Below, one piece after another: positions 36,739 through 50,271 of a stretch of DNA of 64,000 bases (positions within the stretch are counted from its first letter, which is position 1; every line of letters starts with the position of its first letter). The stretch is from contig NZ_JACJPV010000013.1 of assembly GCF_014696225.1 (NCBI RefSeq), forward strand, positions 1-64,000. The letters run 5' to 3'. Both the position numbers and the translations under genes were made by a program. Below the pieces are notes generated by a model. The model saw only the letters and a list, made by a program, of their open reading frames with translations. It did not search any database and was not told where the DNA came from. Source of the DNA: Anabaena sp. FACHB-1237 (lineage in GTDB: Bacteria; Cyanobacteriota; Cyanobacteriia; Cyanobacteriales; Nostocaceae).

Positions 36739-37719
36739 ATGGCTACCCGCCCAGAAATGAATTATAACTTACACACGCTATCACGGCTAATAGCTTACAT
36801 TACTTCACACTGTCACCTTCATACCATTATGAATACACCAAAAACCTCAAAATTCCAATTATTTGATAACGAAATTATAGCAGCATGGATTTTTCTCACA
36901 CCAGCCCTAATTATATTAGGTTTATTTATAATTTGGCCAATATTTTACTTGTTTTACCTCAGCTTTACAGCAGGTAGTTTTACATCCACAGGTGCATATT
37001 GGGTAGGTTTAAAAAACTATTTGCGACTCTTAGGAAATGCAGATTTTTGGCAAATTCTGTTTAACACAATCTATTTTACCATTGGTAGTGTTATTCCTAG
37101 TTTAATCATACCTTTAGGACTGGCAGTATTATTAAATAAAGCTATTCCTATGCGGGGAATTTTCCGTACAGCATACTTTTTACCATCAATAATTTCCTTA
37201 GTTGCTGCTGGTTTAGGATTTCGGTGGTTGTTTCAAAATACTGGACCAATTAATCAATTATTAGGTATTTTTAATATTCCTGAAATTGCTTGGTTAGGAG
37301 ATACTTTTTGGGCAATGCCAGTAATGATTCTTTTCAGTATTTGGAAACAAATAGGGTTTAATATGGTAGTTTTTTTGGCAGGTTTACAAGCAATTCCTGT
37401 GAATAGATATGAAGCAGCAGAATTAGATGGGGCAAATGATTTACAACAATTTTGGCATATTACTTTACCAGGATTAAGACCTACTTTAATTTTCGCTACT
37501 ATTACCACAGTAATTTTTACTTTCCGCAGTTTTGAACCAGTTTATGTGATTACGGGAGGAGGTCCTTTAAATTCTACCAATTTATTAGTTTATTACACTT
37601 ATCAAGAAGCCTTTGGACAATTTGATTTTGGTTATGCTGCGGCCATTGCTACGGTACTTTTAGTCATAACTTTAGGACTAGTTTATTTACAAATCCAAGT
37701 CACGAATGAGAAGGAATAA
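36739..37719 (+). CDS. ABC transporter permease (MalF/UgpA-type, binding-protein-dependent sugar/solute uptake); start probably at an internal Met (~36829)
   Basis: 6 TM helices and the EAA loop YEAAELDGANDLQQFWHITLPGLRPT. Confidence 0.8.
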   Translation: MATRPEMNYNLHTLSRLIAYITSHCHLHTIMNTPKTSKFQLFDNEIIAAWIFLTPALIILGLFIIWPIFYLFYLSFTAGSFTSTGAYWVGLKNYLRLLGNADFWQILFNTIYFTIGSVIPSLIIPLGLAVLLNKAIPMRGIFRTAYFLPSIISLVAAGLGFRWLFQNTGPINQLLGIFNIPEIAWLGDTFWAMPVMILFSIWKQIGFNMVVFLAGLQAIPVNRYEAAELDGANDLQQFWHITLPGLRPTLIFATITTVIFTFRSFEPVYVITGGGPLNSTNLLVYYTYQEAFGQFDFGYAAAIATVLLVITLGLVYLQIQVTNEKE

Positions 37720-37720
37720 A

Positions 37721-37789
37721 TAATGGATAATGGATAATTGATAATTGATAATTGATAATTGATAATTGATAATTGATAATTGATAATTA
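37721..37789. repeat. Heptamer tandem array (ATAATTG/GATAATT) x ~9, STRR-like
   Basis: taatggataatggataattgataattgataattgataattgataattgataattgataatt, immediately after the permease stop. Shorter arrays at 53577..53600 and a ttggtaa array at 33173..33198. Confidence 0.9.
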
Positions 37790-37946
37790 ACCGATTAAAC
37801 AGTACATTAGTGAGTTATTTGGATAGATTTAATCATCAAAAATAATTATCAATTGTCCATTTTCAATAGACATTTTATAACCTCTTTACAAGGGTTATAG
37901 AAAAAGCATATTGAATTTTCAGACAGGTTTAATTAGGTTTAATTAT

Positions 37947-38795
37947 TTAAAACTCTCTTTTTAAGAAGATTAAAATAGCTAATGCTAACAACATAAAACT
38001 GTAAATTAAACCATAACCAGCATTGATAGTTAAAGTCATAAAATCTGGTAATGCTTGGATACCATAAACGGCATCATTTTTTAAGTCTAATCTCGATAAA
38101 TCTGGCAAAATTAAATATAAACCTTGGGTCATTTGCATAATCCCTTGACTACCACTTAATTTACCTAATGCTACTAAATCTTTGGTAATAGTTCCCATTA
38201 AATAAACAGCAAAAGTTAAAGCTGTGGCAATGAGAGAACTAGTAAATACTCCTAAAGCAACCGCGACAGCAGTAATTAAAGATAACTGCAAAATTAAAAA
38301 TAATACAGCCAGAAGAATACTAGTAAAAGGATAAGATATTTTACCAATTAGTAAAAATCCTACATAAATGATGGTCATTGCTGTAATTAAAACAGTGATC
38401 ACAGCAGATAAACCGAAATATTTACTAGCAATAAATTCACTACGACTGATAGGTTTAGCAATTAATACTAAAATTGTGCGTTTTTCAATTTCTTTATTGA
38501 CTAAACCTGTACCAATAAATATGGCAACAATTAACCCGATGATATTCATTGTTGCTAAACCAAAATCTAAAAATATTTTGTCAGCACTGGTAGCAGAAAA
38601 TTCAGGAATAGCGTGGAAAGCAACGGCTAAAATAATCGCATAAAAACCGATAATGTAGACAATGCGATCGCGGATCACTTCCTTAAATACATTTTTACCC
38701 ATGACAAAGGTTCTCATTACATTCATAATTCTTCCTCGTTGTAATTTATATTGTGATAATTCAACTAATTCGATAAATGGGTATTGATAACCCAT
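37947..38795 (-). CDS. ABC-2-type transporter permease-like polytopic membrane protein
   Basis: ~6 predicted TM helices with hydropathy typical of ABC-2 permeases. No cognate ATPase adjacent. Confidence 0.5.
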   Translation of the reverse strand: MGYQYPFIELVELSQYKLQRGRIMNVMRTFVMGKNVFKEVIRDRIVYIIGFYAIILAVAFHAIPEFSATSADKIFLDFGLATMNIIGLIVAIFIGTGLVNKEIEKRTILVLIAKPISRSEFIASKYFGLSAVITVLITAMTIIYVGFLLIGKISYPFTSILLAVLFLILQLSLITAVAVALGVFTSSLIATALTFAVYLMGTITKDLVALGKLSGSQGIMQMTQGLYLILPDLSRLDLKNDAVYGIQALPDFMTLTINAGYGLIYSFMLLALAILIFLKREF

Positions 38796-38874
38796 ATTTA
38801 CACATTCAGTATTAATTATAAATCGGGCTAGAAGCCTAATCTACTATTGAGAAATTAATTATCAATTGTCAATT

Positions 38875-39882
38875 CTACTGTTGTGGTGGAGGAGAACCAA
38901 TAATAAGGGTACTAGTTTCGCAGGAAATATTAGCCACTGCATTTTTATTTTCTGATGTTTTATCAGAACCTTTAGGTTCTATCAAACAAGATTTTTTCCA
39001 ATAAAATCCTTTATTATCTGGACTCGGTCCTTTCCAAATAGTTAAAATATCCAATCTGTATCCAGTTTTAATACTAACTACTCTTGGTTGTACTTCCCAT
39101 AATTTCTTTTCCTCCAATTTACTTAAATTCTTGTCAATAGTTCTCTGGCCTAAATTACCTAATTTTTGATTAGCATCTAATAACCATTTTTCCACTTCTG
39201 ACCAAGGTTTATTAGCAATTTGTTGCTGTACTAAAGGTTGAATTTTTCTTAAAATTAAATCACCATTTTTAGGTTTTTGTTTTCGCGGTTCTACCCTAAT
39301 CACAAAAGCGCTATTTTGAAAATTATCTCCGCGTAAACTGGGATAGTCTTTTAACCATTTATCTACAACAAAGTAAAATTGAATCCAACAACTAATTAAC
39401 ATAGACCAAGCTAACAAAATCAGAATTTTTTGTTTCTGTTCTAATTTAGGAAGCGTAACCTTTGCTGTTGTTCCTCCTGTACCTTCAAAAAAACTGGGTA
39501 AAACAGTCATTATTGCTGCGATAGTTGGCCAGATAACTATGGTTTTAGTAGTAATAATATTTTTTTCATGGCCGAAGGCAAATACACTGATTAAAAAACC
39601 ACTAATTACTGCTCCCACAGGCATAAAAGTTCCAGGAACTCGCAAGGGATCATCTGTTGTATACCATGCTGTTCCTGCTATTAAAAATAACCAGCCACAA
39701 AAAGCAATAATATCTTTAACAAATCCTACAGCAAAATATGATGCTGCCCAAGAAAATACACTCAAATAAATTAAGGTTTGCCATGAATATATTTTAGCTG
39801 GAGTTAATAATTTTCGCACTCCTGAGAATAAGTCTTCAATAAACTTAAATATTGCTAATACATCCTTAAATAAACTGTCCAT
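38875..39882 (-). CDS. Hypothetical integral membrane protein
   Basis: Multiple TM segments N-terminal, soluble C-terminal ~150 aa. No motif recognised. Confidence 0.45.
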   Translation of the reverse strand: MDSLFKDVLAIFKFIEDLFSGVRKLLTPAKIYSWQTLIYLSVFSWAASYFAVGFVKDIIAFCGWLFLIAGTAWYTTDDPLRVPGTFMPVGAVISGFLISVFAFGHEKNIITTKTIVIWPTIAAIMTVLPSFFEGTGGTTAKVTLPKLEQKQKILILLAWSMLISCWIQFYFVVDKWLKDYPSLRGDNFQNSAFVIRVEPRKQKPKNGDLILRKIQPLVQQQIANKPWSEVEKWLLDANQKLGNLGQRTIDKNLSKLEEKKLWEVQPRVVSIKTGYRLDILTIWKGPSPDNKGFYWKKSCLIEPKGSDKTSENKNAVANISCETSTLIIGSPPPQQ

Positions 39883-39898
39883 TTCTTCTCCTGTATTT

Positions 39899-40435
39899 TT
39901 AAAGTGAACGTATTAATAAAAGTGCTGTAATAGCACTATAACTCAGTGAATTAGCGACTAATGTTGCTAAAACCAGTTGATTATTTTGAACTTTATTGAT
40001 ATTCAGATAAGCTGCTCTTTCTTGTCCAGTCATCACGGTAGTTTGTTCTTGCTTTTTAGCTTCGTTCAAAAATATCATTAGTAATTTTAGTAATAAAAAT
40101 TTGACTAAGAAAGTTCCGAAGAAAATAGCAGAAGATGTAAAAACTATCATGGTTTGGATACTGGGATCTTTGAGTTTATTGAAAAGTACATAGTTAATTA
40201 ATTGTGATTTAATTTCTATAGCTAATATTGGTTCAATTGAGAAAAATATTAACCAGCCAATAACACTAGAGAAAACATTAGTACATATAGCATAAAATGT
40301 ACTAGTTTTTTTATCAAATTTCAACCATTTATGGAGAACAGTAGCTTCTATGGGAATAGCTGTGATTAAAAATAGGACTTCAAACAGAATTGCCCCAACT
40401 GGTAAAATTATCGGTAGTGTTAATTCTTCAGACAT
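39899..40435 (-). CDS. Hypothetical integral membrane protein
   Basis: 4-5 TM helices. Adjacent to the preceding membrane protein; likely co-transcribed. Confidence 0.45.
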   Translation of the reverse strand: MSEELTLPIILPVGAILFEVLFLITAIPIEATVLHKWLKFDKKTSTFYAICTNVFSSVIGWLIFFSIEPILAIEIKSQLINYVLFNKLKDPSIQTMIVFTSSAIFFGTFLVKFLLLKLLMIFLNEAKKQEQTTVMTGQERAAYLNINKVQNNQLVLATLVANSLSYSAITALLLIRSL

Positions 40436-40744
40436 AGTGGTGTGTCGGTAGGGTAAACTGTACAGAGTATCACTAAATAGGTAAGATAGGTTTAATAATA
40501 AAAGTATCTTCCCACATTTCTGATTACTTTTTATTTATGATAACTTGATGCTTCTGTCAAGTCATAATACTGATGATTCACTTGATCGCTATAGACCAAC
40601 TTGTTACATATCTTAATATAAAGTAAATAATTAAGAGAAAATACAAGTTGCTGATATACAAACAAACACCGCATAATCACATTTATACTTAGTTTATATT
40701 TAGCATTTTCGTAGTTTTTTGAAAATAATAAATAAGGAGTAATT

Positions 40745-41185
40745 TTGTTACCATTGTTACCAGATTCTTTTCCTCAAGCAGCAGCAAGACATTTATATGA
40801 TGCAAAAATCTTGTTAGATCAGCAACGATGGGATAATGCTGTATATCTTGCGGGTTATGTCGTTGAATGCTCATTTAAGGTATTAGTAGAAGTATATATT
40901 CCTGAAGGTAAAACAGCAGTTAAAAAGTATGGACATGATTTAACAGAACTTCAAGGAAAAGCAATAGATAGATTACGCTTGATGTATCCTGTACTTATGC
41001 AGCTTCCAACTTCTCAAACCCAAGGAACAAAATTAGCAGAAAATCATCCAGGCAGACGCTATTATAAATCAGGAATTTGGAATCAAACTGAAGCGGAGGA
41101 AGCAGTTAACAGAGCAGAGGAAATTTATCAGGAAGTTATCACTAAATTGGTTTTAGATGGTATAATTAGCAGTAACGAATTTTAG
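40745..41185 (+). CDS. HEPN-like small alpha-helical protein (tentative)
   Basis: AARHLYDAKILLDQQRWDNAVYLAGYVVECSFKVLV resembles the first HEPN helix pair. KKYGHDLTEL lies where the Rx4-6H motif sits (Arg replaced by Lys). Confidence 0.4.
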   Translation: MLPLLPDSFPQAAARHLYDAKILLDQQRWDNAVYLAGYVVECSFKVLVEVYIPEGKTAVKKYGHDLTELQGKAIDRLRLMYPVLMQLPTSQTQGTKLAENHPGRRYYKSGIWNQTEAEEAVNRAEEIYQEVITKLVLDGIISSNEF

Positions 41186-41201
41186 AAAAATTGAGAAAAA
41201 T

Positions 41202-42590
41202 ATGATTAGTTTTGGTGATACTTTTGACAAAGTAAAAGAGTGTTTTACAGAAGCAAATATTGAATCAGGACTCAAACCAAAGTTAAAATCTGTAACCATA
41301 ATTCGTGATATTTATGGTAAAATTCGGCTGTTTCTTGAACCAAAGGAAAGTATTACAATTGATGCAGGAGAAACAGATAAATTAAAAAGACATTTACAAC
41401 AAAAATTAAGTTATTATTATGGTGAAGATATTTGGTTGGCACAAGGTGAAAAAGATGGTTACAAATCCTTAATTGATGCCATAAAAAATGAAAGAATAGC
41501 GGCTGAATGGGATGATAATAATATTGATTGGTATGTGCTAGAACGCCATCTTGCTAAACAGACATGGACTAATCAAAATTCAGGTAATCCACCTTGGGAA
41601 ATAAGATGGGTGGATACAGGAACAAAACCAGCAGTTGTCACTTTTTTCTCATTCAAAGGTGGTGTAGGTAGAACCACAGCATTAGTAGCTACAGCACTTA
41701 CTTTAGCTCGTAATGGACACCGAGTAGCTATAGTAGATTTAGATTTAGATTTAGAAGCTCCCGGGTTATCCAGTATCTTTTTTAAAGATACAGTAGAAAA
41801 CTTTGGTGTGATTGATTATTTATTAGAGAAAAAGATTCAAAATAGAAATTGGTCTTTAAGAAATGATATTTTAAGAATTAATGATCCCCTATTACTCGGA
41901 AATTCAGGAGGACAAATATATTTATTTACTGCGGGAAATGTAGATAATAATTACTTAGAAAAGTTAGCAAGGTTAGATTTTCAAAACTTAGTAGATCATC
42001 AACTTCCTGAAACCTTTAAGGGAATGTTGAAAGAACTAGAAAGTGCTGTTAAACCTCTTGATTTTATTCTCTTAGATTCTAGAGCAGGATTTCATGATAT
42101 TGGAGGATTAGCATTAACTGATTTATCTCACGCCGCAGTGATATTTGGTAGACAGTCTCGGCAAAGTTGGGCTGGTTTAACTTATGTTATTCGTCGTTTA
42201 TCTCAACCATTATTAGCAGAAAGGGAAAAATTCGCTGTAATATTAGTTCATGCTATGGCTCTTGCCAGTTTGGAAAGACGAAGGAATGAAGAATTAAGAG
42301 CATTTAAAGAACAGGCATATATAGCATTTCAAGAAAACTACTATTATGAAGGTGAAGTTGTACCTAATGCCGATGATATTAATGAACCTTTTTTACCTAT
42401 AATACTGCCTTTGAAAGATGAATTACAAGGAGATATTAGTTTATTTGTGCGTGATGAAAGTCAAGAAGAATCTGAACGGCTGAAACAGTTTGTATCTTTG
42501 ATGACTAATGAAGATTATCAAAAAATTGCTCAAAGGTTGTGTATAAGATTTAATAAGAGATTTAACAAAATAGAAGAGGAAGTAAGATGA
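41202..42590 (+). CDS. ParA/MinD-family P-loop ATPase homologue with N- and C-terminal extensions and a degenerate Walker A (KGGVGRTT)
   Basis: VVTFFSFKGGVGRTTALVATALTLARNGHRVAIVDLDLDLEAPGL is the ParA deviant Walker A with the P-loop Lys replaced by Arg. Walker B-like FILLDSRAG. Confidence 0.65.
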   Translation: MISFGDTFDKVKECFTEANIESGLKPKLKSVTIIRDIYGKIRLFLEPKESITIDAGETDKLKRHLQQKLSYYYGEDIWLAQGEKDGYKSLIDAIKNERIAAEWDDNNIDWYVLERHLAKQTWTNQNSGNPPWEIRWVDTGTKPAVVTFFSFKGGVGRTTALVATALTLARNGHRVAIVDLDLDLEAPGLSSIFFKDTVENFGVIDYLLEKKIQNRNWSLRNDILRINDPLLLGNSGGQIYLFTAGNVDNNYLEKLARLDFQNLVDHQLPETFKGMLKELESAVKPLDFILLDSRAGFHDIGGLALTDLSHAAVIFGRQSRQSWAGLTYVIRRLSQPLLAEREKFAVILVHAMALASLERRRNEELRAFKEQAYIAFQENYYYEGEVVPNADDINEPFLPIILPLKDELQGDISLFVRDESQEESERLKQFVSLMTNEDYQKIAQRLCIRFNKRFNKIEEEVR

Positions 42591-44101
42591 GTAATTCTGA
42601 TAAACAAAAACTACTAGAATTAATGGCTGGTATAGCACCACGAAACGCAACAGCAGAAAATGAAAGTAATGATCATGCCATTTTTCTCAAAAACTTTCTA
42701 CCTATTCCTAACTATCGCCAAGTTTTAGAAAGAGATACACTTTTAATATTAGGAGGAAAGGGGGTAGGTAAAACTGAACTATTTCGGTTATTAGCCATTC
42801 CTTCAGGACGAAAAATCCTGGTAGAAAACTTAAAAATTAGAGCATTAGAAGACTTAGACAAAACAACATGGATTGCTGGTTTTGGACGTACTCAACAGCA
42901 GGAAAAAACCTTTCCTACGCCAGAAACTATAGAAGCACAAATACACAATGGGAGTAATTTGGATTGGCGGATATTTTGGATTGGTTTAATGTTAGGAAGA
43001 ATTTTAAGCCAAGAACAAGAAATATTGAAAGGTGATTGGGTTGATGAGATACCTTTAGAAATTCGGGAATTATTAATCAATAAATTACCTCTATTATCTG
43101 CTTGGTTTCCTCTTGTATGTCAAAACATAGAGAAAATTAATTATGCTTTAGATTTGTTAGATCAAAAATTAATTGAATCAGATCAATGGTTATTTATCAC
43201 CTATGATGAACTAGATAGATTAGGATATTCATATCATCAATTAGCTACTCCTATACGTGAACTTTTAGCTTTTTGGTTAGATAGATGGCGACGTTGGGAA
43301 AGAATTAGACCTAAGATTTTTTTACGTACTGACCTTTTTCGAGAAGATTTTTTAAGTTTTCCTGATGCTTCTAAATTAAAAGCTTATCAAGTTAATTTGG
43401 AATGGAAAGATTCATGGTTATATCAACTACTATTCAAAAGATTAGCAAATTCTGGTCAAGAAATGGCTGAATATTTGCAGGATATATCACCGACATCACC
43501 AAATTTTCTCAAGGAAACTAACACACCTTTAGGAATAATTATCACTGCTAATGAAGTTTCTCATGAATTTGTGATCGGCAGAATAATTAATAGATTTATG
43601 GGTGATAATCCTAGAAAGGGATATACACATCTTTGGATTCCTAATAATCTTAAAGATGCTGGAGGTCGAATTTATCCCCGCGCATTTTTACAGCTATTTT
43701 CATTACCAGCACAAAGAAGAATAAATGAATCTGATATGCAAAATTTAACTGGAGATACTCTCCTCACTCCTGCTGATTTACAAAGCGCACTTGTGGATAT
43801 TTCTCAGTATAGAATTGGAGAATTAGTAGATGAATATCCTTGGTTAGAACCTCTCAAAAATAGCTTAAATGGTTTGAAAGTTCCTGTGGAAGAAGAAATT
43901 TTCCTCGATAAACTTAAAAATACAATGTGGAGTGAAGAATTAGGAAAACAACCTCCTGCTTCCAAACCAGAGGAAATTATGGGATATTTGCTACAACTGG
44001 GAATTATTGACAGGCGTTCTGATAAGCGTGTTAATATGCCTACAATTTATATGTATGGATTTGGGGTAAAACGTCCTGGTGGTGTAAAACGTCCAAAGTG
44101 A
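42587..44101 (+). CDS. P-loop NTPase of unknown family (Walker A GGKGVGKT, Walker B LFITYDE) with a ~200-aa C-terminal domain
   Basis: Start overlaps the upstream stop (ATGA) by 4 nt, indicating translational coupling. LLILGGKGVGKTELFRLL; WLFITYDELDRL. Confidence 0.6.
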   Translation: MSNSDKQKLLELMAGIAPRNATAENESNDHAIFLKNFLPIPNYRQVLERDTLLILGGKGVGKTELFRLLAIPSGRKILVENLKIRALEDLDKTTWIAGFGRTQQQEKTFPTPETIEAQIHNGSNLDWRIFWIGLMLGRILSQEQEILKGDWVDEIPLEIRELLINKLPLLSAWFPLVCQNIEKINYALDLLDQKLIESDQWLFITYDELDRLGYSYHQLATPIRELLAFWLDRWRRWERIRPKIFLRTDLFREDFLSFPDASKLKAYQVNLEWKDSWLYQLLFKRLANSGQEMAEYLQDISPTSPNFLKETNTPLGIIITANEVSHEFVIGRIINRFMGDNPRKGYTHLWIPNNLKDAGGRIYPRAFLQLFSLPAQRRINESDMQNLTGDTLLTPADLQSALVDISQYRIGELVDEYPWLEPLKNSLNGLKVPVEEEIFLDKLKNTMWSEELGKQPPASKPEEIMGYLLQLGIIDRRSDKRVNMPTIYMYGFGVKRPGGVKRPK

Positions 44102-44163
44102 TAGAAAAGCGATTGATTAGTAATGGATCATATTGGTAGACAATTAAGGAGTTAGTAATTACA

Positions 44164-45300
44164 ATGACAAGAAATGGTATCGGTATTCGTACAGCCCAAG
44201 CCCGTTCGGAACGCCTTACTGGTCAAATTCATGTTTATGATGGTATTGGTAAAGGTAAATCACAAGCGGCTTTAGGTGTGGTTTTACGTTCTATTGGTCT
44301 AGGTATAAACGCGGAAAATAATTTTCATCGAGTCTTATTATTACGTTTTTTAAAAGGACCAGAGCGAGATTATGATGAAGATGGAGCAATTACAGCGTTA
44401 CAAAAAGGGTTTCCCCATCTTATTGACCAGGTTCGTACAGGAAGGGCGGAATTTTTCGGACATGATGAAATTACCAGTTTTGATCGTGTGGAAGCTGCTA
44501 GGGGTTGGGATGTGGCTAAAGGAGCGATCGCTTCTGATTTATATTCTGTGGTAGTGTTGGATGAAATTAACCCGGTGTTAGATTTGGGGTTATTATCTGT
44601 GGCAGAAGTGGTTAAAACTCTGCAAAATAAACCCCAAGAATTAGAAATTATTTGTACAGGACGCGCTGCACCACAACAACTATTAGATATTGCGGATCTG
44701 CATTCAGAGATGAAACCGTTACATCATCCTACAGCAGATGAGTTGTTAATTGAAGGTATAGAAATTTATACAGGTGCAGGTAAAGGTAAATCTACTAGTG
44801 CTTTGGGAAAAGCATTACAGGCAATAGGTCGAGGTATTAATCACCCTGGATCTACCCGTGTATTAATTATGCAGTGGTTAAAAGGTGGTAGTGGATATAC
44901 TGAGGATGCAGCGATCGCCGCTTTACAACAATCCTATCCTGAAGTAGTAGATCATCAACGTTGTGGGCGTGATGCTATTGTTTGGCGTAATTCTAGACAA
45001 GATTTAGACTATTTAGAAGCTCAAAGAGGTTGGGAAATTGCCAAAACAGCGATCGCTTCTGGAGTGTATAAAACTATTATTCTGGATGAACTTAACCCTA
45101 CAGTTGATTTAGAATTATTACCTGTTGATCCCATTGTACAAGCATTACTACGGAAACCAAGAGACACAGAAATTGTTATTACTGGGCGCTGTCAACATCA
45201 ACCAGCTTATTTTGATTTAGCTAGTGTTCATTCGGAGGTATATTGTCATAAACATTACGCAAATCAAGGAGTAGAATTGAAGCGGGGCGTTGATTTTTAG
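44164..45300 (+). CDS. cobO: Tandem-duplicated CobA/CobO/BtuR-type ATP:cob(I)alamin adenosyltransferase
   Basis: Two repeats of the family. Repeat 1: IHVYDGIGKGKSQAALGVVLRSIGLG...VVVLDEINPVLDLGLL...ICTGRAAPQQLLDIADLHSEMKPLHHP. Repeat 2: IEIYTGAGKGKSTSALGKALQAIGRG...TIILDELNPTVDLELL...VITGRCQHQPAYFDLASVHSEV. Confidence 0.75.
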   Translation: MTRNGIGIRTAQARSERLTGQIHVYDGIGKGKSQAALGVVLRSIGLGINAENNFHRVLLLRFLKGPERDYDEDGAITALQKGFPHLIDQVRTGRAEFFGHDEITSFDRVEAARGWDVAKGAIASDLYSVVVLDEINPVLDLGLLSVAEVVKTLQNKPQELEIICTGRAAPQQLLDIADLHSEMKPLHHPTADELLIEGIEIYTGAGKGKSTSALGKALQAIGRGINHPGSTRVLIMQWLKGGSGYTEDAAIAALQQSYPEVVDHQRCGRDAIVWRNSRQDLDYLEAQRGWEIAKTAIASGVYKTIILDELNPTVDLELLPVDPIVQALLRKPRDTEIVITGRCQHQPAYFDLASVHSEVYCHKHYANQGVELKRGVDF

Positions 45301-45315
45301 AAATATTCAGATTCA

Positions 45316-45346
45316 GATCCCGGACTTCTTCAAGAAGTCCGGGATC
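45316..45346. repeat. 31-bp palindrome GATCCCGGACTTCTTCAAGAAGTCCGGGATC (same family as 30307)
   Basis: Seen directly, 16 bp after the cobO-like stop. Confidence 0.85.
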
Positions 45347-45478
45347 TAGTTTTTATTAATCGCCATTTTTATAAAGAGGAGAAACACCCACAGATACAAA
45401 CCAATCTGGTCTTTTATACCATCTGGGATGATGAGGATCATAATATAAATTCATATTTTAAAACAACCTCTGAAAAAT

Positions 45479-46633
45479 ATGTTTAATGTTACAAAAAAGA
45501 TAGTGTTTATTGGTGGTGGACACACTCATTCCATTGTATTAAATCTTTTAGGTAAATGTCCACTGTCAAAGGTAAGATTGATTTTAATTACTCCAGATAT
45601 ATATACTCCTTATTCAGGTATGTTACCCGGACATATTGCTGGTTTTTATAGTTATTCTCAGTGCCATATTAATTTACAATATTTAAGCAATTTTGCTGGT
45701 TCTGAGTTGTATCTTGATTCTGTGGTAGGTTTGGATTTAAAAAATAATTATGTGCTTTGTGCTAATAAAGAACCTGTAAGTTTTGATGTTCTTTCTATTG
45801 ATATTGGTAGTGTTCCTCAACAATTATCTGTATTGGTTGGTTCCGAATATACTATTGGTGTAAAACCTGTGAGTCGTTTTTTAAAATGTTGGTATAATTT
45901 ACAAGAAAATATCTGGAATAATTCTGGTAAGTCTTTTAGTATCGCTGTGGTTGGTGGTGGTGCTGGCGGTGTGGAATTGGTATTATCCATGATCAGAGGT
46001 TTACAAGGAGAAAGTTGTTTAAAATTGCCAAATGTGGAGTTTCATTTATTTCACAGTGGTATAAGTTTAATGCCAAATTACTATTATTTGGTTGGTGAAT
46101 TTATACAGGATCTTCTCCTCAGTAAAGGTGTGAATTTACATCTAAAGGAAAGGGTATGTGAGGTAATAAAAATTATAGATGATAGGTTAAATGTTAAATG
46201 TGAATCTGGTTTGATCCTAAGTTGTGATTATGTGTTTTTGGTAACTCAACCATCAGCAGCAAGTTGGGTTAAAGATTCGGGAATTGCTACGAATGATGAT
46301 GGTTTTATTTTGGTAAACAATGCTTTACAATCAGTCTCTCATCACCATATTTTCGCTGCGGGTGATATTGCTACTATGATTAATTATAATTTACCGAAAT
46401 CAGGTGTATTTGCGGTACGTCAAAGTAAAACTTTATATGATAATTTACGCAGAATAATGGATGATCAACCTTTAAAATCTTATAAACCACAAAGTAGTTA
46501 TTTGAGTTTAATCGGTACAGGAGATGGTAAGGCCATAGCTACTAAAGGTAATTTCACTTTGCCTCCTCATAAGTTATTATGGTGTTGGAAAGATTTTATT
46601 GATCGTCGTTTTATGGAACAATTTCCACAGTAA
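45479..46633 (+). CDS. FAD-dependent pyridine-nucleotide-disulfide-type oxidoreductase
   Basis: N-terminal Rossmann KIVFIGGGHTHS. Second dinucleotide fold SIAVVGGGAGGVE. C-terminal IFAAGDIAT motif. Confidence 0.65.
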   Translation: MFNVTKKIVFIGGGHTHSIVLNLLGKCPLSKVRLILITPDIYTPYSGMLPGHIAGFYSYSQCHINLQYLSNFAGSELYLDSVVGLDLKNNYVLCANKEPVSFDVLSIDIGSVPQQLSVLVGSEYTIGVKPVSRFLKCWYNLQENIWNNSGKSFSIAVVGGGAGGVELVLSMIRGLQGESCLKLPNVEFHLFHSGISLMPNYYYLVGEFIQDLLLSKGVNLHLKERVCEVIKIIDDRLNVKCESGLILSCDYVFLVTQPSAASWVKDSGIATNDDGFILVNNALQSVSHHHIFAAGDIATMINYNLPKSGVFAVRQSKTLYDNLRRIMDDQPLKSYKPQSSYLSLIGTGDGKAIATKGNFTLPPHKLLWCWKDFIDRRFMEQFPQ

Positions 46634-46700
46634 GGTTATTGACTTATTTAAGAAGTCGAGAATTGCAATTTTATGAAAACATTAACAGAGGTTTACAAAT

Positions 46701-47321
46701 ATGAATCAACGATTAAATGAGGAAGAACTAAATCAAATTATTTATGAGGTTCAATCTTTACAATTACGTCAAGAATCAGAATTGAATAAACAGCAGGTTC
46801 AACAAATTTTACAAGAGTTAAATTTGCCTCCTGAATTATTAGATGAAGCGTTAATTCAATTACGTCGTCGTCAAGCATTACAAGTTGAAAAAAGTCGCAA
46901 TAAGTTAATTATTGCTAGTATGGTTGCTGGTGTAATTATTTCTTTAGGAGGATGGTTATTTGTCTCTCAAAAAGAAAGTTCTTTATTAGCTAATGTTAGT
47001 TCTCAAGCTGATAGAATTACTTTATCTTCCAATAATAGTAATATCACCAATATTTCTCGTCAATCTAATTCAGAAGTTTTCTATCGTGTGACTTTAAAAG
47101 ATGCACCCATAGGTAAAAAGTTGTCTCTTTCTTGTAATTGGATTGATCCTACTGGTACTATTGTCAAACAAAATAAATACATAACTAAAGAAGTCGCAAC
47201 TTCTATATTCGATACTCATTGTCGTTATACTATTAATCCTAGTGCTAAAGTTGGTAATTGGCAAGTACAAATGTTACTTGATGGTCGAAAAATTAGCGAT
47301 GAAATTTTTAGTGTTGAGTAG
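46701..47321 (+). CDS. Hypothetical single-pass membrane protein with an N-terminal coiled-coil
   Basis: Coiled-coil/Gln-rich N-terminus, one TM (LIIASMVAGVIISLGGWLFV), beta-rich C-terminus. Confidence 0.4.
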   Translation: MNQRLNEEELNQIIYEVQSLQLRQESELNKQQVQQILQELNLPPELLDEALIQLRRRQALQVEKSRNKLIIASMVAGVIISLGGWLFVSQKESSLLANVSSQADRITLSSNNSNITNISRQSNSEVFYRVTLKDAPIGKKLSLSCNWIDPTGTIVKQNKYITKEVATSIFDTHCRYTINPSAKVGNWQVQMLLDGRKISDEIFSVE

Positions 47322-47329
47322 TTTTTGAT

Positions 47330-49060
47330 ATGTCTGTTTATCATTTTATCGGTTATTGGGGTGATGGTTGTGAAGATATTTTGCAGAAAATTATCACGCA
47401 AAGTCGCAAAGTCGCAAAGGTAGAAAGTGGTTCTTGTAATGTTCTTTATGTTGGTTGTGAATGTTTACCAATTTTAGCTAAAAATACATCTACAAATATT
47501 ATTGGTGGTATTTCTGCTGGAGGATTTTCTGGTGATCCTGATGTTTGGATAAAGCTAAGAGAAAATAAGTTGATTTTAGGAAGGGAAATTTTTGGTAAAG
47601 TTCCTTTATTTTGGATGAAAGTAGATCAGGTAATTTGGTTTTCTTCTCAATTACAATTGCTTTTACAAGTGATGGAAAAACCCGAAGTTAGTATTTCTGG
47701 TTTATATGGTTATAGTTGTTTTTCTTATGTTCCTACTCCTTTAACTGCCGTTAATCAGATTTTCTCTGTACCTGCGGGAGTTGAAATGATCTGGGATAAT
47801 ATTAATAATTATAAGTTACATTATCTTGATCAATGGTATGAGTCTCAGGAACAAGTTAAAGATGAAAAAGTCGCTGTTTCTCAATTACAAACTTTACTCA
47901 AAGATGCTGTTGAAAAACAAATTTCTGATATTAATAATGAACCAGTGGGAGTTTTCCTTTCTGGAGGTTTAGATTCTTCTATTGTTGCTGCTTTGTTAGT
48001 AAAAGCTGGTGTAAAAGTTCGTGCTTATAGTTTAGATTTTGGTAAGTTTGGTATTTCTGAGTTTTCTTATGCAGAAAAAGTGGCAAATTTTTTAAATATT
48101 CCTCTTGTAAAAGTTGATGCAAGTCCTGATAAAATAAAAAAGTATTTAGTTCCTACTGTTCAAGCATTAGATTTACCTTTTGGTGATGGTGTTACTGTTC
48201 CTTTGTATCTTCTTAATAAAGCTGCTTCTCAAGAAACAAATATCATTTTTAATGGTGAAGGTGGTGATCAATTATTTGCAGGTTGGACTAATAAACCTTT
48301 AATTGCTGCTGGTATTTATCAATCACAAAATCCTCAAAAACAAGAGGGTTTTATGCAACAATATCTCCGTACTTTTCACCGTTTATGGGGCTATGAAAAT
48401 AGGGTTTATCTACCACAAATATATGCACAGATTCAAGGTTTAAATGCTGAAGAATGGCTCGTTAATGCATTGGATATCAGTTTTGCTTCTTCATTATTAC
48501 ATCGTCTGAGAAGGGCAAATTTAATGTTAAAAGGATCACAAAACATTCATCCTCGTGCGTCTGCTTTGGGTTTTGTTCATGGGTTAAATGTGCGATCGCT
48601 CTTTTGTGATTTAAACTTAGCAAAATGGACTTTTCAACTATCAGGAGAACTCTATTTACAAGGTGCTTGTGAAAAGTATATCCTTAAACGTGCAGTGCAA
48701 GATTTATTACCATCCGATATTGTTTGGAGACAAAAACGCGGTATGGGTGTTCCTTTAACCTCGTGGTGTTTTCATGATTTATGGCATAATATCGGTAATT
48801 GGTTAAATCCGGGTATAATCGCAGCAGAAAATATTTTTTACCCTGATATTGCTACACAAATCATTACGGGACAATTAGGAGGTAATATTCAAGGAAGACG
48901 CATTGGTGAGATACTTTGGTTACTGATTATGTGGGAACTTTGGTATAATCACGTTTTTGGAAGAAAAGTAGGTAAAATCTCTTTTAATCATTCTTTTGTA
49001 CTCCCTAGTTGGTTATGGAAACAATACAAAAAAATCCAGCAACAATTCCCAGTTTATTAA
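47330..49060 (+). CDS. Asparagine-synthetase-B-like ATP-dependent amidotransferase lacking the N-terminal Cys nucleophile (beta-lactam-synthetase/lasso-cyclase-like)
   Basis: PP-loop VGVFLSGGLDSSIVAAL. N-terminal domain retains the AsnB Ntn fold (GGISAGGFSGDPDVWIKLRENKLILGREIFGKVPLFW) but begins MSVYHF with no Cys2. An in-frame stop lies directly upstream. Confidence 0.75.
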   Translation: MSVYHFIGYWGDGCEDILQKIITQSRKVAKVESGSCNVLYVGCECLPILAKNTSTNIIGGISAGGFSGDPDVWIKLRENKLILGREIFGKVPLFWMKVDQVIWFSSQLQLLLQVMEKPEVSISGLYGYSCFSYVPTPLTAVNQIFSVPAGVEMIWDNINNYKLHYLDQWYESQEQVKDEKVAVSQLQTLLKDAVEKQISDINNEPVGVFLSGGLDSSIVAALLVKAGVKVRAYSLDFGKFGISEFSYAEKVANFLNIPLVKVDASPDKIKKYLVPTVQALDLPFGDGVTVPLYLLNKAASQETNIIFNGEGGDQLFAGWTNKPLIAAGIYQSQNPQKQEGFMQQYLRTFHRLWGYENRVYLPQIYAQIQGLNAEEWLVNALDISFASSLLHRLRRANLMLKGSQNIHPRASALGFVHGLNVRSLFCDLNLAKWTFQLSGELYLQGACEKYILKRAVQDLLPSDIVWRQKRGMGVPLTSWCFHDLWHNIGNWLNPGIIAAENIFYPDIATQIITGQLGGNIQGRRIGEILWLLIMWELWYNHVFGRKVGKISFNHSFVLPSWLWKQYKKIQQQFPVY

Positions 49061-50256
49061 CTCCTTTTTCTTTAGAAGTTGCTGAGGAGTTATTACAAGT
49101 TTACGGTTTTCCTCTCTATGTTTATGATAGTAATATTCTGAAAAACACTATTTCTCATATTACTAATTCTATTAATTATCCTAGAACTAAATTTTACTTT
49201 GCCAGTGTCACTAATGGTAATATCTCATTATTGAAATTCTTTAAAGATGCTGGTTGGGGACTTCATGCTAATACCCCAGGTGATGTTTTTTTAGGTTTAA
49301 AATCAGGGTTTTATCCTAGTGAAATTGTTTATAGTGGTAGTAACTTAAATCAAGAGGATATTTCACAACTTTTAGATTGGGGTATTACTACGTTTAATCT
49401 GGATAGTATTAGTCAGTTACAGTTATTTTCTCAGGTTTTGTTATCTCACCCACAGACGCAGAGTCACAGAGAGAATTTAGGAGAAAATTTAAGAATCGGG
49501 TTACGTTTGAATGTTTCTCAAGATAGTCGTATAGGGGTTAGTATAAAGGATTTTCAGGAAGCAATAGATATTGCTAGTTTAGCAGGTTTGAAAATTACAG
49601 GTTTACATTTTTATCGCGGTACGGGAACTAATGCGACGGCCGCTTTTACTAATGTTATTGATCAGGTAATATCCATAGCAGAAAATTTACCACATTGGCA
49701 ATATTTAGATTTTGGTGGTGGTTTTGGTTATCCATATCATCGTGATCAAATATCTTTTAATTGGCATATTTTTGGAGATGAATTAACCGCAAGACTGAAT
49801 AAATTACCAATAAATGTAGATTTAATTATTGAACCTGGACGTGCTGCTGTTGCTGGTTGTGGTACTCTTTTAGTACAGGTTGTATCTATAAAATGGCAAG
49901 GTGATAAACAAATTGTCGGAGTTAATTCTACTGTTGCAAATATTTCTGTTCCTGCTGTACATGGAGGTTATCGAGAAGTTGTCACTTGGAAAAATTCCAC
50001 ATCGGAAACATACCTCACGGATGTTTGTGGAAATACTACTTATTCCAGAGATTATTTAGCTAAAAATTACCAACTTCCTGCTTTACAAATTGGTGATATT
50101 ATTGCTATTTTAGATGTTGGTGCTTATGGTTATGCTATGTCTTCTCATTTTCTACATCGTCCTAAACCTGCGGAAATACTCCTAGAAAATGGTTCACATC
50201 GCTTAATTAGAAAACGTGAAAATTACAATGTTTTACTTAACAATCAGATTGTATAA
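49009..50256 (+). CDS. Diaminopimelate/ornithine-decarboxylase-like (fold-type III PLP) protein, apparently lacking the Schiff-base lysine
   Basis: FPLYVYDSNIL...KFYFASVTNGN aligns to LysA PVWVYD...FAQKACSN with the PLP Lys replaced by Val. C-terminal EPGRA and GAYGY motifs present. Overlaps the upstream gene by 52 nt. Confidence 0.65.
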   Translation: MVMETIQKNPATIPSLLTPFSLEVAEELLQVYGFPLYVYDSNILKNTISHITNSINYPRTKFYFASVTNGNISLLKFFKDAGWGLHANTPGDVFLGLKSGFYPSEIVYSGSNLNQEDISQLLDWGITTFNLDSISQLQLFSQVLLSHPQTQSHRENLGENLRIGLRLNVSQDSRIGVSIKDFQEAIDIASLAGLKITGLHFYRGTGTNATAAFTNVIDQVISIAENLPHWQYLDFGGGFGYPYHRDQISFNWHIFGDELTARLNKLPINVDLIIEPGRAAVAGCGTLLVQVVSIKWQGDKQIVGVNSTVANISVPAVHGGYREVVTWKNSTSETYLTDVCGNTTYSRDYLAKNYQLPALQIGDIIAILDVGAYGYAMSSHFLHRPKPAEILLENGSHRLIRKRENYNVLLNNQIV

Positions 50257-50271
50257 TATCAGGATAAAATT

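What the first reader, a model, noticed from the sequence alone, without database searches (positions are those of the whole stretch)
40745..44101. Translationally coupled cassette: HEPN-like protein + ParA/MinD-like ATPase with Arg-substituted P-loop + unclassified P-loop NTPase
Three same-strand genes are spaced 16 bp apart and then overlap by 4 bp (ATGA overlap at 42587). The middle protein has an unmistakable ParA deviant Walker A, but the invariant lysine is Arg (FKGGVGRTT). This is expected to abolish or alter ATP hydrolysis. It also carries a ~140-aa N-terminal and a ~90-aa C-terminal extension. The third protein has an intact Walker A/B (GGKGVGKT; LFITYDE) and a C-terminal domain of unknown fold. 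The first is a small helical protein with HEPN-like helices. HEPN modules paired with NTPases are a recurring theme in abortive-infection, toxin-antitoxin and other anti-phage systems. I do not recognise this combination as any named system. The cassette lies between membrane-protein genes and a repeat-bounded block, which is consistent with an accessory or defence-island location.
Basis: partly seen in the sequence, partly recalled or inferred. Interest (0 to 1): 0.72.

Follow-up and report, generated by a model that had tools for sequence, protein, structure and literature searches.

The report
Untested three-gene phage-defence candidate (PDC-M28)
The three overlapping genes are real and form a compact cassette (a small HEPN protein, a ParA-like ATPase whose key lysine is always arginine, and an ORC/BrxC-like AAA+ ATPase) that recurs unchanged across many bacterial phyla and plasmids. 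It is already catalogued as the untested anti-phage candidate PDC-M28, so this copy is a new member of a catalogued but uncharacterised system.

Summary
Genes A (40745-41185), B (41202-42590) and C (42587-44101) lie on one strand, with a 16-nt gap and then an ATGA overlap. B reads FKGGVGRTT.

The cassette is not unnamed. All three proteins match PADLOC's candidate system PDC-M28 (A/B/C). This is one of 145 untested "guilt-by-embedding" candidates. B passes NCBIfam "KGGVGR-motif variant AAA ATPase" and C passes "P-loop ATPase, Sll1717 family".

The A-B-C order is kept in 54 complete trios and on plasmids of Proteobacteria and Actinomycetota. The arginine is present in 74 of 74 B homologues. Flanking genes vary. 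Three plasmids carry the trio inside BREX-2 operons, and other copies sit beside a MADS-like gene, a retron RT, TIR/TA genes or integrases. In this window the neighbours are housekeeping genes (fraC operon, cobO-like).

The best reading is an NTPase-gated HEPN abortive-infection or toxin-antitoxin-like module. No paper describing an experiment on it turned up in my searches of the held library.

The parts
40734..40739 (+). Shine-Dalgarno-like AAGGAG, 5 nt upstream of the TTG start of gene A
   Evidence: Read directly from the sequence.
40745..41185 (+). Gene A: 146-aa HEPN protein matching PDC-M28A. An alternative start at TTG 40754 gives 143 aa. Invariant residues are E41, K45 and R105. R15, H16, C42 and Y106 are nearly invariant; H64 was 98% conserved in the first set but falls below 95% once the plasmid copies are added, where a His is still present but the alignment shifts. 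No His lies 4-6 residues after R105.
   Evidence: Pfam PF05168 E 3.1e-5, 24.6 bits against a cut-off of 22. PADLOC PDLC04558 E 1.6e-12. Conservation. NCBI name 'HEPN domain-containing protein'.
41202..41606 (+). Gene B, N-terminal alpha/beta domain (aa 1-135). It is specific to this family. Conserved residues are the IRD36xxG39xxR42 hairpin, W103, R115, K119 and W122.
   Evidence: AF2 secondary structure. A phmmer search of 1.84 billion representatives gave only 47 clusters, essentially all B-type proteins or fragments of them. No Pfam hit.
41619..42401 (+). Gene B, ParA/MinD-type ATPase core (about aa 140-400). Signature Lys K152 is kept. The P-loop Lys is replaced by R157. Also conserved are the switch-I-like D181-L-D183-L-E-A-P-G and the Walker-B-like D287...D292-S-R294-A-G296-F-H-D.
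41652..41678 (+). Deviant Walker A FKGGVGRTT. The R157 codon AGA is at 41670-41672.
   Evidence: Sequence. KGGxGR is invariant in 74/74 homologues.
42402..42590 (+). Gene B, C-terminal helical extension (about aa 401-462) and stop codon
   Evidence: AF2 helices 421-434 and 437-449. This part lies outside the roughly 234 residues aligned to ParA structures; the boundary is an inference.
42587..42590 (+). ATGA overlap of the B stop codon and the C start codon (translational coupling)
   Evidence: Sequence. The same -4 overlap occurs in 22 of 54 complete trios, and the rest lie within about 15 nt.
42587..44101 (+). Gene C: 504-aa AAA+ ATPase of ORC/Cdc6/BrxC/archaeal-ATPase type, matching PDC-M28C and the Sll1717 family. 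Walker A is G56-G-K-G-V-G-K62-T and Walker B is F-I-T-Y-D207-E-L-D210-R. A probable C-terminal winged helix spans about aa 430-492.
42752..42775 (+). Gene C Walker A (aa 56-63, GGKGVGKT)
   Evidence: G56, G59, G61 and K62 are invariant in 71/71.
43193..43219 (+). Gene C Walker B region (aa 203-211, FITYDELDR). The D-x-L-D-R form resembles KAP NTPases. E208 is not conserved.
   Evidence: One homologue is annotated 'KAP family NTPase' by PGAP.
44057..44098 (+). Gene C conserved basic C-terminal tail (aa 491-504, GFGVKRPGGVKRPK). R496, G498 and G499 are about invariant. The tail is predicted to be disordered.
   Evidence: Conservation 70-71/71. Tail sequences in plasmid homologues. pLDDT below 50 at 501-504.

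Best explanation
This is one copy of a self-contained, horizontally mobile three-gene conflict module, catalogued as PADLOC candidate PDC-M28. It most likely works as an NTPase-gated abortive-infection or toxin-antitoxin-like system. Every functional step below is inferred; only the folds, motifs and gene contexts cited in the For line come from tool results.

- **A, the likely effector.** A is a HEPN dimer. It probably cuts or binds RNA through a non-canonical site (invariant R105, upstream H64 and/or R15-H16, E41/K45).
- **B, the likely switch.** B is a ParA/MinD-type ATP-sandwich dimer. The invariant Lys-to-Arg change in its P-loop probably makes the ATP-bound state long-lived or dependent on a partner. 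B would hold A inactive and release it on a nucleotide-dependent change. This is the role proposed in 2013 for ParA/Soj partners of HEPN toxins.
- **C, the likely sensor.** C is an ORC/Cdc6/BrxC-like AAA+ ATPase with a winged helix. It probably assembles on invading DNA, or on a phage or BREX-derived cue. It may act on B through its conserved basic C-terminal tail, as ParB, MinE and ParG peptides act on ParA-type ATPases.
- **Context.** Where the trio lies inside BREX-2, it may guard that system in the way PrrC guards EcoprrI.
For: **Catalogue and family matches.**
- All three proteins match PDC-M28A/B/C (E 1.6e-12, 2.4e-63, 5.3e-73).
- PDC systems were derived from genes embedded in BREX, DISARM or type I RM systems. 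They are stated to be untested (bioRxiv 10.1101/2024.01.29.577857). CAS_00115, with a count of 121, is listed as 'Assign as candidate PDC-M28'.

**Conserved cassette.**
- The A-B-C order and strand are kept in 54 complete trios from Cyanobacteriota, Bacilli, Myxococcota, Planctomycetota, Acidobacteriota, Bacteroidota and Lentisphaerota.
- The same order holds on alpha-, beta- and gammaproteobacterial and Streptomyces plasmids.
- Identities of A, B and C to the window's proteins co-vary across loci (r = 0.94-0.98), and gene junctions are tight.

**Gene context.**
- Flanks are not conserved.
- The trio is embedded in BREX-2 in three unrelated plasmids: Streptomyces (pglW-trio-pglX), Sphaerotilus (pglX-trio-DUF6079-pglZ-brxD) and Thiodictyon (pglX-Arc-trio-'phage resistance protein'-pglZ-brxD).
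- Other copies lie beside a DUF499/mad3 gene plus an SNF2 helicase, a retron-type RT, TIR and GNAT/DUF1778 TA genes, and integrases or IS elements.

**Protein evidence.**
- A is a PF05168 HEPN. Its pattern (R kept, H lost, conserved upstream H) matches the alternative active site proposed for the AF0298 and AbiV HEPN families (PMC3710099).
- The same paper predicts HEPN plus ParA/Soj dyads to be TA systems with the ATPase as antitoxin.
- C has an ORC/Cdc6/BrxC fold with an intact Walker A and Walker B aspartate.
Against: - My searches of the held library found no paper testing any member of this system, and PDC systems are explicitly untested.
- In this window, and in most of the neighbours sampled in 35 chromosomal loci, the flanking genes are housekeeping genes. 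My estimate of enrichment for defence neighbours is rough.
- Cyanobacterial genomes keep little synteny anyway, so variable flanks weigh less there.
- The HEPN lacks the canonical Rx4-6H histidine, so RNase activity is uncertain.
- No interaction among A, B and C was modelled. Both structure-prediction jobs went on monomers.
- The role of the C tail and the direction of regulation are pure inference.
- No homologue was found in phage records or IMG/VR contigs. This is neutral evidence.
Confidence: 0.45

Rival explanations
1. B itself is the effector. It would be a naturally ATP-locked ParA/MinD-like protein that, once released by C, coats the nucleoid or poisons host MinD/ParA-dependent division and segregation, arresting the infected cell. 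A would be a non-catalytic HEPN acting as a nucleotide- or RNA-binding regulator.
For: - Kaur et al. 2020 (PMC7159879) report MinD/ParA-like domains predicted to be inactive as effector domains in conflict systems of multicellular prokaryotes.
- F-plasmid ParA K120R binds ATP but does not hydrolyse it.
- A lacks the catalytic His.
- The invariant E41-x3-K45 of A recalls the nucleotide-binding pair of KNTase-type HEPN domains. This point rests on my own knowledge and was not tested.
Against: - B keeps every other catalytic motif under strict conservation. This is unlike the degenerate domains described by Kaur et al.
- R105, H16 and C42 of A are strongly conserved, and H64 largely so, which fits a catalytic or ligand site.
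- No test of DNA binding or toxicity was possible.
Confidence: 0.15
2. The trio is a stabilisation (addiction or partition-like) module of plasmids and integrative elements rather than an anti-phage system. It would act as a HEPN toxin with an ATPase antitoxin, or as an atypical ParA-based segregation device with C as the DNA-binding adaptor.
For: - The trio occurs on many plasmids, often directly beside tyrosine recombinases or integrases and other TA pairs.
- The 2013 prediction treats HEPN plus ParA/Soj as a TA pair.
- C's basic tail resembles ParA-stimulating peptides (inference).
Against: - Most copies are chromosomal and far from replication or transfer genes.
- The K-to-R change is expected to cripple the hydrolysis cycle that partition needs.
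- Embedding inside BREX-2 operons is typical of defence cargo.
- TA and defence functions are not mutually exclusive.
Confidence: 0.15
3. The trio is an accessory or regulatory module of BREX type 2 (Pgl), for example loading or controlling PglY/PglX. The stand-alone cyanobacterial copies would be remnants or would work with unlinked partners.
For: - Three unrelated plasmids have the trio on the same strand inside pglW/X/Y/Z operons.
Against: - The great majority of trios, including this window, 54 complete chromosomal trios and seven other plasmid contexts, have no BREX genes within the stretches examined.
- The position within BREX-2 differs between hosts (pglW|pglX against pglX|pglY), as expected for independent insertion.
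- MazF/CopG and Arc genes are embedded in the same operon.
Confidence: 0.1
4. The trio is a housekeeping cell-biology system of filamentous cyanobacteria, such as cargo positioning or a filament or septum function. This would be suggested by its position next to fraC-fraD-fraE in this genome.
For: - The cassette diverges from the fraC operon across a 309-bp spacer.
- Sequence identity is about 60% across cyanobacterial orders.
Against: - The scan found only 124 relatives among the genomes of 185,579 species. This is a lower bound, because the search patterns came from cyanobacterial sequences.
- The fraC neighbourhood is not shared by other loci.
- Two divergent copies occur in one strain (L004 and L029).
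- Decayed copies exist (L053, L055, L057).
- The trio is present in unicellular Microcystis, Bacilli, Myxococcota, Proteobacteria and Streptomyces, and on plasmids.
Confidence: 0.05

Closest known systems
PADLOC phage-defence candidate PDC-M28 (Payne et al., bioRxiv 10.1101/2024.01.29.577857)
   Same: All three proteins match the three PDC-M28 models over their full lengths, in the catalogued order FAM_01482>>FAM_02546>>FAM_01036. The BREX-embedded copies I found match the way the candidate was discovered.
   Different: Nothing differs in kind. This copy is a cyanobacterial chromosomal instance in a non-defence neighbourhood. PDC-M28 is only a bioinformatic candidate, with no tested activity and no proposed mechanism.
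HEPN (MAE_18760 family) + ParA/Soj-like ATPase dyads predicted as toxin-antitoxin systems (Anantharaman et al. 2013, PMC3710099)
   Same: A HEPN gene is directly coupled to a SIMIBI ParA/Soj-type ATPase gene. The proposed logic has the ATPase controlling the HEPN toxin through a nucleotide-dependent change or phosphorylation.
   Different: That family is listed as keeping Rx4-6H, and it is a two-gene module. Here A matches only PF05168 (and HEPN_AbiV weakly) and lacks the His. The ATPase has the KGGVGR variant plus a unique N-terminal domain. A third AAA+ gene is obligatory. I could not test whether MAE_18760 itself is an orthologue.
PrrC / RloC anticodon nucleases (NTPase + HEPN, PrrC embedded in the EcoprrI type I RM locus)
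   Same: A HEPN module is controlled by P-loop NTPase activity. It lies embedded within a restriction-type defence operon and is thought to fire when the host system is attacked (PMC3710099; details of PrrC biology are from my own knowledge).
   Different: PrrC and RloC are single polypeptides with an ABC-type ATPase and a canonical Rx4-6H HEPN. Here the functions are split over three proteins with ParA-type and AAA+ NTPases, and the HEPN is non-canonical.
ParA/MinD deviant-Walker-A ATPases (Soj, MinD, FleN/FlhG, McdA)
   Different: The P-loop lysine is invariantly arginine. B has an extra family-specific N-terminal domain of about 135 aa. No ParB-, MinE- or McdB-type partner or centromere is evident. 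McdA is a precedent for a variant Walker A, but there it is the signature lysine that is lost (own knowledge).
ORC/Cdc6-type AAA+ ATPases, including BREX BrxC and archaeal PF01637-type ATPases (PAB2304, SSO1545), and KAP NTPases (PifA, RADAR RdrA)
   Different: C gives no significant sequence match to Pfam KAP_NTPase, and only a sub-threshold match to ORC-CDC6-like (E 3.4e-4, 19.9 bits against a cut-off of 27). The catalytic Glu after the Walker B Asp is not conserved. C has a unique conserved basic tail.

Membership tests
PADLOC PDC-M28 candidate system | Matches to the three component HMMs (PDC-M28A, B, C) | tested here: met
   E 1.6e-12 (A, 7-139 of 146), 2.4e-63 (B, 3-400), 5.3e-73 (C, 1-503).
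PADLOC PDC-M28 candidate system | Three genes adjacent, on the same strand, in the order A>>B>>C | tested here: met
   Coordinates. The catalogued order is FAM_01482>>FAM_02546>>FAM_01036. PADLOC's own system-calling rules were not run.
PADLOC PDC-M28 candidate system | Anti-phage activity | not testable with these tools
   The authors state that the 145 PDC systems are untested. No paper mentions PDC-M28.
NCBIfam NF047398, KGGVGR-motif variant AAA ATPase | Score above the curated cut-off and the KGGVGR motif | tested here: met
   184.9 bits against a cut-off of 90, covering residues 143-333. The motif K152-G-G-V-G-R157 is seen in the sequence.
NCBIfam NF047389, P-loop ATPase Sll1717 family | Score above the curated cut-off | tested here: met
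   104.6 bits against a cut-off of 75, covering residues 21-481. Close homologues carry this name in NCBI and UniRef.
ParA/MinD (SIMIBI, deviant Walker A) ATPases | ParA/MinD fold | tested here: met
ParA/MinD (SIMIBI, deviant Walker A) ATPases | Deviant Walker A K-G-G-x-x-K-[ST] with both lysines | tested here: not met
   The signature K152 is present. The second (P-loop) lysine is R157 in 74/74 homologues.
ParA/MinD (SIMIBI, deviant Walker A) ATPases | Cognate stimulatory partner (ParB, MinE or McdB type) and a cargo or centromere | tested here: inconclusive
   No such gene is present in the cassette or its neighbours. The basic tail of C is only a candidate stimulatory peptide.
HEPN superfamily RNases | HEPN domain (four-helix bundle; Pfam PF05168) | tested here: met
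   PF05168 E 3.1e-5, 24.6 bits against a cut-off of 22, covering 12-131. Most homologues carry PF05168 in precomputed annotation. No structure was predicted for A.
HEPN superfamily RNases | Catalytic Rx4-6H motif | tested here: not met
   R105 is invariant (73/73), but no His lies 4-6 residues downstream in any subgroup. A conserved upstream His (H64) and R15-H16 could form the alternative site described for the AF0298 and AbiV families. This was not tested.
HEPN-MNT (type VII) toxin-antitoxin | Adjacent minimal nucleotidyltransferase antitoxin | tested here: not met
   No nucleotidyltransferase domain appears in A, B, C or the immediate neighbours. The N-terminal domain of B has no detectable relatives outside the family.
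ORC/Cdc6-BrxC type AAA+ ATPases | AAA+ core plus lid plus C-terminal winged helix; Walker A and Walker B | tested here: met
KAP family P-loop NTPases | Match to the KAP_NTPase profile; inserted transmembrane helices in many members | tested here: not met
   No KAP_NTPase hit at E <= 1. Only the Walker B form DELDR and one PGAP label on a homologue point that way.
BREX type 2 (Pgl) system | pglW, pglX, pglY, pglZ (and brxD/brxHI) in the locus | tested here: not met
   None of the ten neighbouring genes annotated here (36739-40435 and 44164-51576) is a pgl or brx gene. BREX-2 genes flank the trio only on three plasmids.

The most novel reading that the evidence does not exclude
The trio is a working immune system of a new mechanistic type. 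A ParA-family ATPase that evolution has fixed in a K-to-R 'ATP-bound, slow-hydrolysis' form would serve as a molecular latch or timer between an ORC/BrxC-like AAA+ DNA sensor and a non-canonical HEPN effector. The basic C-terminal tail of the sensor would act as the ATPase-activating finger. When nested in BREX-2, the trio would guard that system against phage inhibitors, like a PrrC split into three proteins. This would be the first assigned function for the KGGVGR ParA variant. It would also be the first case of a ParA-type switch used for immune signalling rather than positioning.
Probability: 0.25. Interest if true: 0.75.

Novelty: new member of a known kind. Interest (0 to 1): 0.5.

Why it matters
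- If PDC-M28 is a real defence system, it adds a new combination of parts to bacterial immunity: a ParA-type switch, an ORC/BrxC-like AAA+ protein and an atypical HEPN.
- It would also give a biological role to a strictly conserved Lys-to-Arg P-loop variant. In laboratory ParA mutants this change separates ATP binding from hydrolysis.
- The recurrent nesting of the trio in BREX-2 makes a direct test possible of the idea that embedded genes guard larger systems.
- For this window alone the result is more modest. The cassette is a well-preserved member of a catalogued family that my searches found no experiments on. It sits in an ordinary chromosomal neighbourhood of Anabaena sp. FACHB-1237.

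Tried and rejected
**Literature.** Searches for 'KGGVGR', 'PDC-M28', 'sll1717' and combinations of HEPN, ParA, MinD and defence terms found no paper on this system.

**Sequence searches of solved structures.**
- A gave nothing significant, even with a 28-sequence profile.
- C gave nothing.
- B gave only P-loop-level ParA hits.

**Other features in the region.**
- Rfam found no RNA family in 39800-44400.
- No extra small ORF of note lies in the 309-bp upstream spacer.
- Promoter and terminator scans were not above the shuffled expectation.
- Repeat searches found no direct or inverted repeats bounding the cassette, so no insertion scars were found and the 'repeat-bounded block' is not supported.

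**Other collections.**
- Phage records (tblastn with C) and IMG/VR contigs (patterns from B) gave no homologue.
- E. coli complete genomes gave no DNA match to the Enterobacter copy.
- An exact-sequence contig look-up for B gave nothing on record.

**Hypotheses considered and rejected.**
- The N-terminal domain of B as a hidden minimal nucleotidyltransferase. It has only one invariant acidic residue (D36), its secondary-structure order does not fit the pol-beta fold, and it has no relatives outside the family. I rejected this, though without a dedicated fold search.
- The Arg as a sequencing error (AGA against AAA). Its invariance in 74/74 homologues rules this out.
- Several Streptomyces plasmid hits turned out to be C-like genes alone, without A and B, so I did not count them as trios.

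**Limits.** Flank enrichment was estimated only roughly, because the family tool reports counts per family and not per protein.

Full report
**1. Observation**

The three ORFs exist exactly as described.
- A is at 40745-41185 (146 aa, TTG start).
- B is at 41202-42590 (462 aa).
- C is at 42587-44101 (504 aa).

A's TTG lies 5 nt after an AAGGAG. NCBI's own annotation of the same genome starts three codons later (143 aa, P0316). A ends with TAG at 41185, and 16 nt separate it from B's ATG. B's TGA overlaps C's ATG as ATGA at 42587-42590, and a GAGGAAG precedes it.

The Walker A of B reads FKGGVGRTT, with R157 encoded by AGA at 41670-41672. C has GGKGVGKT and FITYDELDR.

The window comes from Anabaena sp. 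FACHB-1237 or a near-identical genome. B is 100% identical to an NCBI protein of that strain.

**2. What the proteins are**

*Protein A.*
- A passes Pfam HEPN PF05168 (E 3.1e-5, 24.6 bits against a cut-off of 22).
- Across 73 homologues, E41, K45 and R105 are invariant. R15, H16, C42 and Y106 are nearly so; H64 was 98% conserved among the 65 chromosomal homologues.
- No histidine follows R105 at a distance of 4-6 residues in any subgroup. The canonical HEPN RNase motif is therefore incomplete.
- Anantharaman et al. 2013 describe exactly this pattern for the AF0298 (HEPN-T) and AbiV families: R kept, H lost, and a second conserved His upstream. They suggest it forms an alternative active site (PMC3710099).

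*Protein B.*
- B passes NCBIfam NF047398 'KGGVGR-motif variant AAA ATPase' (184.9 bits against a cut-off of 90, residues 143-333).
- The signature lysine K152, T158, D181-x-D183-L-E-x-P-G and D292-x-R294-x-G296 are conserved together with R157 in 74/74 homologues. The nucleotide site is therefore under selection and is not decaying.
- In F-plasmid ParA, the equivalent K120R mutant binds ATP but does not hydrolyse it, and fails to reach the active ATP* state (bioRxiv 10.1101/2024.03.17.585406).
- The first roughly 135 residues of B form an alpha/beta domain. A phmmer search of 1.84 billion representative proteins found it in only 47 clusters. Essentially all are B-type proteins or fragments, and one is a tandem B-B fusion.

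*Protein C.*
- C passes NCBIfam NF047389 'P-loop ATPase, Sll1717 family' (104.6 bits against a cut-off of 75).
- Its AF2 model is good (pLDDT 85.7, pTM 0.86).
- Foldseek independently ranks archaeal ORC2 and BrxC first (E about 1e-4).
- Walker A and the Walker B aspartate D207 are invariant. The following glutamate is not conserved. The D-x-L-D-R form recalls KAP NTPases (the KAP comparison is from my own knowledge, and one homologue is labelled KAP by PGAP).
- The last 14 residues form a conserved basic tail (R496-x-G498-G499 in 70-71 of 71), which is predicted to be disordered.

**3. The cassette as a unit**

A scan of one genome per species (185,579 species) with patterns from B returned 124 relatives.
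- In the 78 loci kept, A-B-C occur in the same order and strand wherever the contig is complete, giving 54 complete trios.
- The hosts are Cyanobacteriota, Bacilli, Myxococcota, Planctomycetota, Acidobacteriota, Bacteroidota, Lentisphaerota and an Enterobacterales MAG.
- Identities of A, B and C to the window's proteins co-vary across loci (r = 0.94-0.98).
- Junctions are tight. The -4 overlap between B and C occurs in 22 of 54 trios.
- One strain has two divergent copies (L004 and L029), and some copies are decayed (L053, L055, L057).

A tblastn search with C found 24 plasmid records and no phage record. Annotated plasmids show the same trio, with KGGVGR, in Calothrix, Paraburkholderia, Enterobacter, Burkholderia, Agrobacterium, Tistrella, Skermanella, Sphaerotilus, Thiodictyon and one Streptomyces.

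**4. Context**

Flanking genes are not conserved.

On three unrelated plasmids the trio is embedded on the same strand inside BREX type 2 operons:
- pglW-trio-pglX in Streptomyces sp. NBC_01334;
- pglX-trio-DUF6079-pglZ-brxD in Sphaerotilus;
- pglX-Arc-trio-'phage resistance protein'-pglZ-brxD in Thiodictyon.

Elsewhere the trio adjoins:
- a DUF499/mad3 ATPase and an SNF2 helicase on a Calothrix plasmid;
- a retron-type reverse transcriptase (L060) and a DNA methyltransferase (L072);
- a TIR protein and a GNAT/DUF1778 pair;
- tyrosine recombinases or integrases and IS elements.

Among 129 near neighbours from 35 chromosomal loci, most are ordinary metabolic or regulatory genes. A minority are defence-type: mad3 in 3, PtuA/AriA-like ABC ATPases in 3-4, Csx1 in 2 and AbiLi in 2. 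I estimate roughly 8% defence-type neighbours. This is a modest and unrigorous enrichment.

In this window the cassette diverges from fraC, a DUF5357 gene and an ABC-2 permease (the filament-integrity operon). Downstream lie a tandem-duplicated cobO-like gene, an FAD oxidoreductase and biosynthetic genes. No bounding repeats were found. The local setting is therefore not a defence island.

**5. Relation to what is known**

- All three proteins match PADLOC's PDC-M28A/B/C models (E 1.6e-12, 2.4e-63, 5.3e-73).
- PDC systems are 145 candidates derived from genes embedded in BREX, DISARM and type I RM systems, and are explicitly untested. The supplement lists CAS_00115, with a count of 121, as 'Assign as candidate PDC-M28'.
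- No paper in the library mentions PDC-M28, KGGVGR (in this sense) or Sll1717.
- The nearest conceptual precedent is the HEPN plus ParA/Soj dyad predicted in 2013 to be a toxin-antitoxin pair, with the ATPase as antitoxin. That family keeps Rx4-6H and has no third gene.
- Kaur et al. 2020 note MinD/ParA-like domains predicted to be inactive as effectors in conflict systems of multicellular bacteria.

**6. Mechanism (inferred)**

I favour an NTPase-gated HEPN module.
- C senses an invading nucleic acid or another infection cue by ATP-dependent assembly through its AAA+ and winged-helix parts.
- C acts on B, possibly through its basic tail.
- B is an ATP-sandwich dimer whose Arg P-loop slows or gates hydrolysis. 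It changes state and releases or activates the HEPN dimer A.
- A damages or sequesters RNA and stops the infected cell.

Shown by the analysis are the folds, the motifs, their conservation, the co-inheritance of the three genes, and the recurrent embedding in defence loci. Inferred are every interaction, the direction of control, the RNase activity and the defence phenotype.

The rivals are:
- B as the toxic effector;
- a plasmid addiction or partition role;
- a BREX-2 accessory role;
- a cyanobacterial housekeeping role.

The last is the weakest, given the sparse and cross-phylum distribution and the plasmid carriage.

**7. Verdict**

The cassette is a new member of a catalogued family that my searches found no experiments on, and it is not a new kind. 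Its interest lies in the invariant Arg P-loop, the three-NTP-module logic and the BREX-2 nesting, all of which can be tested directly.

Noticed in passing
window 9830-30302 (+): A hybrid NRPS/PKS gene cluster. It comprises a 2460-aa protein (aminotransferase, luciferase-like monooxygenase, C, A, FkbM methyltransferase, PCP), a 1545-aa KS-AT-KR-ACP protein, and a 2433-aa protein with two C and two A domains, PCP domains and a terminal thioesterase.
   Followed up: partly
window 30372-32099 (+): A 575-aa SMC_N/AAA_23 (RecF/RecN/SMC-type) ATPase directly after the NRPS/PKS cluster. Its role is unknown.
   Followed up: no
window 37947-40435 (-): A fraC (PF24301), DUF5357 (fraD-like) and ABC-2 permease (fraE-like) filament-integrity operon. 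It is transcribed divergently from the cassette across a 309-bp spacer.
   Followed up: partly
window 44164-45300 (+): One ORF holds two tandem CobA/CobO/BtuR adenosyltransferase domains. Internal direct repeats lie about 525-531 nt apart. These are the only repeats near the cassette.
   Followed up: partly
window 46701-50256; L012 6864-10574; L031 14211-17361: The same downstream gene set lies 1.6-3.3 kb after the cassette in two distant cyanobacteria as well (Anabaena CCY 0017 and a Pseudanabaena MAG). The set is a 206-aa unknown protein, an Asn-synthase-like protein and a PLP decarboxylase. This could be a shared ancestral position or a hotspot, and remains unexplained.
   Followed up: no
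P0391 (metagenomic protein, 907 aa): A tandem fusion of two complete B-type proteins. Each has the N-terminal domain and HKGGVGRS. This is consistent with B working as a dimer.
   Followed up: no
L086, L087 (Streptomyces plasmids): A distant C-like protein (about 496 aa, 24-25% identity) occurs alone, without A or B. It lies beside a replication-relaxation gene, a ParB-N-domain gene and ATP/GTP-binding genes on these Streptomyces plasmids. The Sll1717 family is therefore wider than the trio.
   Followed up: partly
L088 506-1052 and 5642-5902 (Thiodictyon plasmid): The same BREX-2 operon that holds the trio also holds an embedded CopG/MazF toxin-antitoxin pair and an Arc-family regulator just upstream of gene A.
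   Followed up: no
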